A stretch of DNA of 64,000 nucleotides from Eledone cirrhosa (Eukaryota): the NCBI GenBank assembly GCA_964016885.1, contig OZ024756.1:18414001-18478000 (forward strand), in the 5' to 3' direction. The notes beneath the pieces are model-generated. The model did not search any database. It was not told the DNA's origin and worked only from the letters and a program-made list of their open reading frames with translations. Of this stretch, positions 19,701 through 22,700 are shown piece after piece. Position numbers and translations under genes: made by a program. Positions within the stretch are counted from its first letter, which is position 1; each line of letters opens with the position of its first letter.

Positions 19701-22700
19701 ATACAGAACAGGCATACAAACTACGAAAATAGAATTTGACGTCTTAACTGAAAAGTCTTTTGAAGGCGTATGGCTAAGGGATAGTGTTAAAATCTCTTCC
19801 GATCCCCAAAGCTCTTCAGGATGGTACTTATCCTGGTTACAGTGGTGTTAAAGTACTGCTGGCATATGGTCCTAGAATGGGAATTACGTTCATACGACCG
19901 AAAGTACAACACACTAATCACTAGGCCGTGCGATTTAGCATACACTCACATGTATGGAGGTAAAGAATTTCTCATGACGGAATTTTTCTGAACATATCAA
20001 CACAAATGGGAAGTTCCACCATTTTCTTGTGAATATATGTCTCTACTATCTTTTCCTTATCTCTATCTTTCTCTCTCTCTCTCACACACTCACACCATAT
20101 ATGAAATAAAATAAGTAAACTCACTGCCAAAATTCTTCACTCGGAGATACTTTAGTGGCGTTTGAGAGAACTCCGTTGTTAGCAATCCTGTTGATCAGGC
20201 CAGTGGCGTTGGACAGTCCGTCGTATCCGGTGGCGTTGGACAGTCCCACGAACGCGGTGGCATTGGTCAACAAAGAATCGTTGGAAGCTGCTGTCGAATT
20301 TATCCTTTCAGTAACGGCACAGTTTATAGAGTTCCAATCATTTTCGCAATTGCTCCACGGCAGCACCTCTCTGAATGAATGGAACAAGTAGTAGAGTGTC
20401 CAGGCCAGGATGATGTTATAGTAAATACAAACGATACCAGACACGATTACCATCCCATAACCAACACCTGCAACGGGAAAATAAAACAAAAATAATAATG
20501 TATTTTTGATTAAAGAAAGTGTTTTATTAACATTTAGATCGAGAATGTAGGAGGATTTGAACAGAGAGCCTAAAGAACCGTTAACTACAATTTTGGGGTA
20601 GGGGAACATCAATTAAATCGACCCCAGTCCAAAGTCTGTAAGCCACAAGGCTCGTTAGGCCGGTGCTTATCCCAGTTCCACGGCGTGAAGCGACTGAGAG
20701 TACAAGATTCCCCCTGGACAGGACGCCAGTCCATCGCAGGGTTAACCCCCTCAGCTGTTATTGCTGGTACTCATTTCCAGCTAAGTATACTGGAGCGATG
20801 TGAAATAAAGTGTTTTTCTCAAGAACACAACACGCAACTCAGCCCAGGATTCGAACCAACGACATTGTGATCGTAAGTCCAGCACCCTTACCACTAGGCC
20901 ACGTGCTGTCACTCAGTGCATTATCAGTACTTAATTTTATCGACCATGTAAGAATGAAAAGCAAAGCTAACCACGGCGGGATTTGAAATCAGAATGTAGA
21001 AAGTCGTAACTAAATATACACATGTATTTATATATATAAAAACAAAGGTGAAATATTCGATTAATCCGTTGTTTTACGGTCGTTTCAGAGAGCAAAATTA
21101 TCGAGGTACAGATTATTCGATGGTGGTTATGCAGCTCAAAAAAGCACACATCTATTCTGCTGTCTATCCCCAGAAACACATAGACACACACACACACGTA
21201 TATGACTTTTAGTGGAACGTACCTTTAAACATGGGGCTGATTCTCCAGGCTGCCAATGGACTCAAGCTTGCAAACTGACCGTAAGACGTTTCCATGAAGA
21301 CCAAAGGAATTCCACACAGGAACAAGAACAAAAAGTATGGGACCAAAAATGCACCTAAAAGAAAAAGAGATAACATATATTGGTTTATACATACCTTATT
21401 CATAGAACACGTCTAAATAATCAGACATATATACATACATATATATTATAAAAATAGACAAAGAAGCCTTCAATACATCAAAAGTCTTTATTAGCCTACA
21501 ATGTTTCGTCCCATTAAGGACTCATCAGGGCAATTAAAGAAGTATTGAAGGCTTCTTTGTCTATTTTTATAATTTTTCGGCTCTGTTGTATTACATTGAA
21601 CTATATCCTATACTGTCATTTCTATAATATGACGAGTGGTTTACTCCAACGCACTCTAGTATTTTAATTTTTAATTCTTATATATATATATATATATATA
21701 TATATGCATACACACACACACACAAGACGAAGATGGAGACAAAGAAGAAGAAGACGAAGAACAAACTTACCCCCACCACTCTTATAACAGAGATAAGGGA
21801 ATCGCCAAATGTTTCCCAGACCGACGGCAAAACCAACACAGGACAACATGAAGTCCAAACGTCCTGTCCAGTTACCCCGATCTTTATTTTCATCGCTCGA
21901 TATGCTCGAGCTATCATCACTGGTTGAAGAATTCGATTCCTCATCAATGGTTTTCACAACCTGATAAAAAAATAGAGAAATAAAACAATTATATATATAT
22001 ATATATAGTTCGAAATAATCGAAAACAAAAAAAAACAAACAAACGCAGGAGTAAATGTTACGTGGTATTATTAGTTTCACGCTTGGTGAGAGTGGGGTGT
22101 GTGGTTACGACGTTTGAGAAAACCACACCACACTTCGGATCTGGGGATATCAACGAATTAACGAGGTAAACTTTGTTACACCGTTATGTTTTCCTGTTTT
22201 TTCTGTTCAAGTTCTAGCTGCCTGATGAGGTCATAGCCGTTGAATAATGGTTGTCACCGAAATATATATTGCAGTGAATATGAATAAAGGAAGTTAATTT
22301 TAACCTGTTGACTTACACTTGTTTTTAAATTACTCTGGAGTAAACAGACCCACCTGCGCACTTCGTTGAGTGTTCTAACCTGTATACCGAAATGTCGGAA
22401 AGCAACCAACACATACTCAAATTTATATATATATATATTTATAGCAAAATAGTACATAGGGGAGACAAATACATATAAGTCGTAGATGCATAGAGACATC
22501 ACGGGTAACAATGCTTATCTCATCAGCCACCAACTATAGGTTATTAAACCTGTTTCGATGTTAGGGTGGTACCGTTCAAACACTCAGACACACATATAGT
22601 TAATAGAATATACAATTAAATACAAGTACAAAACCAAATCTCCTAACACGATTATCGGTTTTATCATTAATTCTGTTTTTTTTACACGCAGAAATGCCCA

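What the first reader, a model, noticed from the sequence alone, without database searches (positions are those of the whole stretch)
21446..21572. Perfect hammerhead on the sense strand of SLC6 intron 2, clamped by a 31-bp hairpin
Seen: the pre-mRNA contains GCC-CUGAUGA-GUCC/GGAC-GAAA-CAUUG-UA^GGC, with predicted cleavage between 21497 and 21496, about 140 nt upstream of the exon 3 acceptor in a 416-nt intron. The enclosing perfect inverted repeat would extend stem I. Inference: it could cleave nascent transporter RNA and affect splicing or expression, although its very short stem III may need dimerisation.
Basis: partly seen in the sequence, partly recalled or inferred. Interest (0 to 1): 0.75.

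Follow-up and report, generated by a model that had tools for sequence, protein, structure and literature searches.

The report
Penelope retroelement stub with minimal hammerhead
The self-cutting-RNA motif and the hairpin in this transporter gene's intron are real, but they are two short head-to-head scraps of a jumping gene with thousands of copies in this genome; the lone motif is predicted to cut poorly and likely does little to the host gene, so the finding is ordinary.

Summary
A type I hammerhead core lies on the sense strand of a 416-nt SLC6 intron, with the predicted cut at 21497/21496 and a 32-bp (not 31-bp) perfect inverted repeat around it. It is not a host element. Bases 21445-~21678 are two 5'-truncated 3' ends of one Penelope-like retroelement joined head to head in (TA)n. 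The core pattern has 2,643 exact hits in the genome (control 0). Longer copies encode RT plus a GIY-YIG endonuclease with the motifs of the Hydra clade. The clamp is the overlap of the two inverted ends: none of 30 copies taken in genome order has one. Helix III is 2 bp with a palindromic loop. The active monomer fold has a probability of about 0.0003, with or without the clamp, and the window holds no second copy to pair with. A transcript contig joins the flanking exons exactly. A related organism has the exons but no depth over the hammerhead. Cleavage was not tested. The scan has reported the same kind of inverted Penelope stub in other genomes, including an octopus. Verdict: a new member of a known kind, low interest.

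The parts
21494..21531 (-). Minimal type I hammerhead: 3-bp proximal stem I, CUGAUGA, 4-5-bp stem II, GAAA, 2-bp helix III inside the palindrome ACAUUGU, GUA cleavage triplet (predicted cut 21497/21496)
   Evidence: Sequence; Rfam RF00163 21.9 bits, below gathering; 2,643 exact pattern hits in the genome
21445..21538 (-). 5'-truncated 3' end of the Penelope-like element, ending at the family's short end; carries the hammerhead
   Evidence: 94 of 94 nt identical to the copy in L026
21539..21678 (+). Second, inverted 5'-truncated 3' end of the same element. It starts downstream of the hammerhead, so it has no core, and runs through a ~105-nt tail to the family's long end
   Evidence: 95.9% over 169 nt to L026, the (TA)n flank included
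21445..21476 (.). Downstream arm (in the pre-mRNA) of the 32-bp perfect inverted repeat; part of the minus-strand copy
21542..21573 (.). Upstream arm (in the pre-mRNA) of the 32-bp inverted repeat; the part of the plus-strand copy that overlaps the minus-strand copy
21679..21705 (.). (TA)13.5 flank, the likely target; a degenerate TA-rich run flanks the other end at about 21430-21444
21355..21770 (-). SLC6 intron 2 (416 nt, GT..AG); about 234 nt of it is the insertion
   Evidence: spliced out in contig record 15/9 of run X4
21771..21960 (-). SLC6 coding exon 2
   Evidence: Pfam PF00209 E 1.1e-16; X4 contig
21223..21354 (-). SLC6 coding exon 3
44312..44335 (-). Coding part of the ATG-bearing exon (8 codons); intron 1 is about 22.3 kb
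   Evidence: Loose end of the X4 contig maps uniquely here

Best explanation
The feature is a short inverted insertion of an endonuclease-bearing Penelope-like retroelement with Hydra-clade motifs, and its hammerhead is the element's own terminal-repeat ribozyme, which here is likely an almost silent passenger. Shown: the insert is two 5'-truncated 3' ends joined head to head in (TA)n, one stopping at the family's short end and one at its long, tailed end, and the hairpin is the 32-35 nt that the two halves share. Inferred: the element's endonuclease cut both strands of a TA-rich site; each DNA end primed reverse transcription at one of the two start points on element RNA; both cDNAs stopped early (94 and about 137 nt) and were joined at their 5' ends. 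Inferred: in full-length tandem elements two same-strand hammerheads 4.7 kb apart can pair through the helix III palindrome and cut, probably with help from protein. In the SLC6 pre-mRNA there is one copy, predicted to misfold with its core paired to the helix III strand, so cutting would be rare and slower than splicing. A rare cut would leave the two pieces held together by the 32-bp stem.
For: Copy number: 92 BLAST matches, 44 of them covering the hammerhead part at 89-100% identity, with 40 of 586 candidates scored. The core pattern has 1328+1315 exact hits, control 0+0; the window's exact 35-nt core occurs 12 times. [quoted passage not shown] Pfam support is weak: RVT_1 E 0.042 in L023 and GIY-YIG E 0.0011 in L029, both below cut-off. 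Sister subfamilies (77-86% DNA identity) show hammerhead-ORF-hammerhead direct repeats in L072 and L073, with RWR, DKT, CxxC..E and N..CxH motifs; CxCX5C is in L024, L027, L067 and others. These fit the Hydra clade definition. 9 of 10 loci with two opposed ends have one long and one short end, as here. Enclosing inverted repeats of 30 nt or more occur in 4 of 46 copies, all among the 16 picked by similarity to the query; in 30 of 30 copies taken in genome order the longest is 9 nt or less. Active monomer fold P = 0.0003 at 37 C with the clamp, without it and in the whole intron; helix III pairs P <= 0.001. No second copy in the window. A contig at depth 104 joins exon 2 to exon 3 exactly. Organism B has 0 depth over 21404-21754 at 80% likeness while exon 3 is covered. 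Literature: single minimal PLE hammerheads showed no detectable cleavage (PMC4209133); the anole PLE hammerhead needed protein, and no RNA-seq ends were found at its site (PMC11167929); introns cut by a hammerhead were still spliced (as cited in PMC2995048).
Against: No cleavage assay was run, and nearest-neighbour folding ignores the tertiary contacts and Mg2+ that stabilise hammerheads. The core is intact. In the window's context stems I and II fold better than in the parent (stem I P 0.85-0.90 against 0.43-0.45). This motif has a real though tiny helix III, unlike the helix-III-less motif in the published monomer test. It is unknown whether the X4 individual carries the insertion (no unique intronic coverage), and a spliced contig cannot show a partial loss of mRNA. 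No listed contig spans the inversion junction or an empty site. Pfam found nothing in 4 of the 6 element ORFs tested and the PDB search found nothing. The clade call rests on motifs and a by-eye comparison, not on a tree.
Confidence: 0.88

Rival explanations
1. The passenger hammerhead does cut a measurable share of SLC6 pre-mRNA, as a monomer or by pairing in trans with another hammerhead-bearing RNA, and so lowers or delays splicing. This would be an accidental effect of a recent insertion, not an evolved control.
For: Intact core and GUA triplet on the sense strand, 142 nt from the acceptor. Stems I and II are well formed. Thousands of sister copies share the same palindrome, and X4 holds short contigs of the family.
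Against: The helix III palindrome duplex is only -2.3 kcal/mol and the core is predicted to be sequestered. PLE hammerheads are slow even as dimers. The spliced product is present.
Confidence: 0.07
2. The host has co-opted the clamped hammerhead as a regulator of transporter expression, as proposed for the conserved intronic ribozymes of amniotes and CPEB3.
For: Only its position in the intron and the intact core.
Against: 100% identity to sister copies elsewhere means it is too young to show selection. No depth over the hammerhead in organism B. The clamp is not a family trait.
Confidence: 0.02
3. The hairpin is an assembly artefact, such as a fold-back read or a misjoined repeat.
For: No listed contig spans the inversion junction. 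The X1 contig from the unique flank reaches only 24 nt into the insert, short of the tool's 31-nt rule for bridging, and X1 may be the assembly's own sample.
Against: The two halves end at the family's two different natural ends, each followed by TA-rich sequence, as in 9 of 10 sister pairs. The arms differ at one site, and the flanks are unique, not mirrored.
Confidence: 0.03

Closest known systems
Hydra clade of C-terminal EN+ Penelope-like elements, e.g. Hydra-1_Obim of Octopus bimaculoides (Craig et al. 2021, PMC8557442; section 11, passages and supplement rows read)
   Same: RT then GIY-YIG; RW(K/R), DKT and CxCX5C motifs; CxxC and CxH around E and N; no CCHH; (TA)n targets; hammerhead near the 3' end with a palindromic helix III; an inverted 5'-truncated copy with a tail at one end.
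   Different: A different family: the ORF is plainly homologous by eye but far from identical to Hydra-1_Obim, and the hammerhead sequence differs (stem III aca-t-tgt here, acca-a-tggt there). The unit is about 4.7 kb against 'generally <3 kb', and the tail is about 105 nt against the usual 30-40. The window holds only a 234-nt stub.
[quoted passage not shown] 2017 known only through the review PMC6765202)
   Same: Type I; short palindromic helix III; thousands of solo copies from truncated PLEs; opposite-strand pairs close together.
   Different: Stem II is short (4-5 bp) with no extra nucleotide after A9, so it looks more like the canonical Schistosoma type than the min-HHR consensus. The motif is enclosed by a one-off inverted repeat.
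Anole Poseidon element PAc (PMC11167929, passages read)
   Same: Two reverse-transcription start sites explain the long and short ends; both DNA strands are cut and extended; AT-rich targets.
   Different: A different clade. In PAc the ORF starts inside the hammerhead; here the nearest ATGs after the core meet stops within a few codons.
Conserved intronic ribozymes of amniotes (hammerheads) and of CPEB3 (HDV-like) (review PMC6765202, passages read)
   Same: Sense-strand position in a host intron.
   Different: Those are conserved across species. This one is a recent repeat copy and shows no depth in the one related organism tested.
Non-LTR retrozymes (bioRxiv 10.64898/2026.07.22.740005, passages read; PMC7229834, search listing only)
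   Same: PLE-related type I hammerheads, often found in introns.
   Different: Retrozymes are non-coding tandem repeats. This is an inverted stub of a coding element, not a tandem array.

Membership tests
Type I hammerhead ribozyme | Conserved core CUGANGA / GAAA / UH with three helices, open at stem I | tested here: met
   All 13 pairs are kept in 12 aligned copies, but with no two-sided covariation, so the alignment adds little
Type I hammerhead ribozyme | Rfam RF00163 gathering score | tested here: not met
   21.9 bits against 34
Type I hammerhead ribozyme | H17 is not G | tested here: met
   A17 here; G in 6 of 2,643 genomic cores. Subfamilies are not independent, so this is weak evidence of selection
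Type I hammerhead ribozyme | Helix III stable enough for a monomer | tested here: not met
   Pair probability <= 0.001; full active fold 0.0003 (a prediction)
Type I hammerhead ribozyme | Self-cleavage | not testable with these tools
   Needs an in vitro assay or RNA end mapping
EN+ Penelope-like element | Single ORF with RT followed by a GIY-YIG endonuclease in longer copies | tested here: met
   ORFs in L024, L027, L071, L072; the Pfam hits are weak and below cut-off
EN+ Penelope-like element | Hammerhead-bearing pseudo-LTRs flanking the ORF as direct repeats | tested here: met
   L072 (4533, 9204) and L073 (4019, 8776), sister subfamilies
EN+ Penelope-like element | Inverted 5'-truncated copy with a tail at one end only | tested here: met
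   The window, and 9 of 10 loci with two opposed ends
Hydra clade PLE | CxCX5C linker; CxxC and CxH around E and N; no CCHH | tested here: met
   against the definition; the CCHH-type pattern hit only other ORFs, in L033
Hydra clade PLE | N-terminal RWK and DKT motifs | tested here: met
   RWR in L067 and L073; DKT in L071, L072 and L073. These are sister subfamilies; no fetched copy of the window's own subfamily reached that far 5'
Hydra clade PLE | Insertion into (TA)n | tested here: met
Hydra clade PLE | Short element (<3 kb) | tested here: not met
   The repeat unit is about 4.7 kb; the paper says 'generally short', so this is not strictly defining
Hydra clade PLE | RT phylogeny places it in the clade | not tested
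   No reference sequences were available in the script box; compared by eye with the supplement only
Host-conserved intronic ribozyme | Conserved at the orthologous site in related species | tested here: not met
   Organism B: 0 depth over the hammerhead at 80% likeness with exon 3 covered. One organism only, contigs only, and the empty site was not seen

The most novel reading that the evidence does not exclude
The inversion accidentally built a pre-folded, clamped hammerhead in a neurotransmitter-family transporter pre-mRNA. It would be switched on in trans by pairing with transcripts of the Penelope family, or by the element's protein acting as a chaperone, so that transposon activity cuts a host pre-mRNA. 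The 32-bp clamp would hold the products together for re-ligation or splicing.
Probability: 0.04. Interest if true: 0.7.

Novelty: new member of a known kind. Interest (0 to 1): 0.15.

Why it matters
As read here it matters little: it is one of thousands of solo hammerheads left by truncated Penelope-like insertions. It has modest value as a new, young, high-copy family with Hydra-clade motifs, an unusually long (~105 nt) tail and clear long/short end pairing, which is useful for studying how these elements insert. Only if cleavage in the host pre-mRNA were shown would it bear on the open question of whether the many PLE hammerheads in animal introns affect host genes.

Tried and rejected
Rfam at gathering scores: no hammerhead; the miRNA hits at E-value level are generic hairpin matches far below gathering and were rejected. 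Clamp as a family feature: rejected, 0 of 30 copies in genome order (L013 and L016 were dropped as duplicates, L017 and L018 did not match the pattern, L021-L036 were left out). Clamp as an activator of the monomer fold: rejected by prediction. Unconstrained co-folding of two cores gave an extended duplex, not a double hammerhead, so it does not support the dimer. Covariation on 12 copies was uninformative because the copies are too alike. The PDB search with the ORF gave 0 hits. No RNA holder was listed by the run search; X4 is treated as a transcriptome only because its contig skips two GT..AG introns. No raw RNA reads were available, so RNA ends and editing could not be examined. RAD-seq runs X6 and X7 did not cover the unique locus. 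A small depth (4.75) of organism B appeared in bin 21600-21660 and not. Lunse et al. 2017 is not held in the library and is cited through a review. Dye 2006 and Fong 2009 were seen only as cited in PMC2995048. Literature searches found no paper on this octopus-type family or locus; subscription papers, Repbase and Dfam were not searchable, so absence from print is not shown. The organism was not determined: 'octopus-like' is my inference from recalled repeat content and the 3.0-Gb size. The SLC6 subfamily was not tested.

Full report
1. Observation. The minus strand reads GCC-CUGAUGA-GUCC-(6 nt)-GGAC-GAAA-CAUUG-UA^GGC at 21531-21494. The predicted cut is 21497/21496, 142 nt before exon 3, in a GT..AG intron of 416 nt (21770-21355). 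Exon 2 matches Pfam SNF at E 1.1e-16, and further SLC6-like exons lie downstream (read by eye). The ATG exon ends at 44312, so 'intron 2' is right counted from it. The inverted repeat is 32 bp perfect, or 35 bp with one mismatch, and the region folds at z = -11.35. Rfam scores the core at 21.9 bits, below the gathering score of 34.

2. It is a repeat. A genome search with the 141-nt region gave 92 matches from 40 of 586 candidates scored. Nearly all full matches begin at the same query position (window 21538). The core pattern has 2,643 exact hits, reversed-pattern control 0, and the window's exact 35-nt core has 12. Position 17 is U in 19 and C in 11 of the first 30 loci, A in the window's subfamily, and G in only 6 of 2,643. 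That fits the hammerhead rule but is weak evidence, because subfamilies are related.

3. Anatomy of the insert. The minus half, 21538-21445, is 94 of 94 nt identical to a sister copy and ends at the family's short end. The plus half, 21539-~21678, is 95.9% identical to the same copy, begins downstream of the hammerhead and runs through a ~105-nt tail to the long end. Both ends abut TA-rich sequence. The hairpin is simply the stretch that the two halves share. In 9 of 10 loci with two opposed ends, one is long and one is short. An enclosing repeat of 30 nt or more occurs in 4 of 46 copies examined. All four are among the 16 chosen by similarity to the query, and only L002 resembles the window (clamp without a second core). 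None of the 30 copies taken in genome order exceeds 9 nt. The clamp is therefore a by-product of where each cDNA stopped.

4. The parent element. [quoted passage not shown] Pfam support is weak: 2 of 6 ORFs hit, both below cut-off. Sister subfamilies at 77-86% DNA identity show hammerhead-ORF-hammerhead direct repeats about 4.7 kb apart (L072, L073). RWR, DKT, CxCX5C, CxxC..E and N..CxH are present and CCHH is absent. This matches the Hydra clade as defined in PMC8557442 section 11. That paper's supplement lists Hydra-1_Obim from Octopus bimaculoides with a (TA)n preference and a palindromic helix III. By eye the proteins are homologous but belong to different families. No tree was built.

5. 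Would it cut? Helix III is 2 bp closing AUU, inside the palindrome ACAUUGU. ViennaRNA predicts the core paired with the helix III strand. The active monomer fold has P = 0.0003 at 37 C (5.0 kcal/mol penalty) with the clamp, without it and in the whole intron, and it is lower at 20 C. Stem I is better formed than in the parent context, but equally so without the 32-bp arms. The palindrome duplex is -2.3 kcal/mol. These predictions ignore tertiary contacts and Mg2+. No second family copy lies in the window, which includes the gene from the ATG exon down to at least the exon near 10700; the gene's 3' end was not mapped. Published single minimal PLE hammerheads did not cleave and dimers cleaved weakly (PMC4209133; review PMC6765202). 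The anole PLE hammerhead needed the element's protein, and no RNA-seq ends were found at its site (PMC11167929). One of nine Xenopus retrozyme dimers cleaved (bioRxiv 10.64898/2026.07.22.740005). Hammerhead-cut introns were still spliced in vivo, whereas a fast HDV ribozyme blocked splicing (as cited in PMC2995048).

6. Host evidence. Run X4 holds a 1,671-nt contig at depth 104 that joins exon 2 to exon 3, and exon 3 to exon 4, with no differences in exons 2 and 3. The intron can therefore be spliced, though I cannot show that this individual carries the insert or exclude a partial effect. Organism B (X5) covers exon 3 and its flank with 11 differences in 154 nt, and shows other repeats at very high depth, but has 0 depth over 21404-21754 at 80% likeness (a trace of 4.75 in one bin). 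The family is likely absent or much diverged there. No contig showed the empty site or spanned the inversion junction.

7. Mechanism. Shown: repeat origin, two-ended inverted anatomy, parent ORF, a spliced product. Inferred: both cut strands primed reverse transcription at the element's two start points, as the PAc data suggest, and the short cDNAs were joined. I took the 'twin-primed' wording from an earlier scan note and tested only the long/short end pairing. Inferred: the lone hammerhead is nearly silent. Untested: cleavage, editing of the stem, polymorphism.

8. Verdict. Observation confirmed; the regulatory reading is not supported; a new member of a known kind; interest 0.15. Earlier scan notes describe the same class of stub in other genomes; none matched this sequence.

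Noticed in passing
window 55320-55625 and 60285-60735: Two further head-to-head inverted units ending in TA-rich sequence, each with two opposed CUGANGA...GAAA cores with a long helix II and no obvious helix III (cores at 55428-/55516+ and 60395-/60633+); likely other Penelope-like families. The second has a short tandem array between its arms.
   Followed up: partly
window 27616 (minus strand, SLC6 intron 1): A solo CUGAUGA...GAAA core of the same family as the 55.4-kb pair lies on the sense strand of the same pre-mRNA. It lacks the ACAUUGU palindrome, so it is not a partner for the intron 2 hammerhead.
   Followed up: partly
window 21445-21573: The 32-bp A/U-rich intronic stem is a plausible A-to-I editing substrate (inference from recalled knowledge of cephalopod editing); no raw RNA reads were available to test it.
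   Followed up: no
window 20590-21000: SLC6 intron 3 holds very high-copy repeats, including a tRNA-like SINE head near 20840-20915.
   Followed up: no
L024-L036, L062, L072: Several other, more divergent CxCX5C-type ORFs, and CCHH-type ORFs in L033, lie next to copies of this family, so several PLE families share (TA)n sites.
   Followed up: no
L015/L016 and L018 (G000 C1:75.446 Mb, C2:264.398 Mb): Two loci on different contigs share about 1.67 kb across the same inversion junction at 92.8% identity, which suggests that an inverted unit was duplicated or re-transposed.
   Followed up: no
window 3376-3439: Rfam tRNA hit just above gathering (29.9 bits) between (TA)n runs; probably a SINE head.
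   Followed up: no
window 31254-31453: A 200-N assembly gap inside SLC6 intron 1; a hidden repeat copy there cannot be excluded.
   Followed up: no
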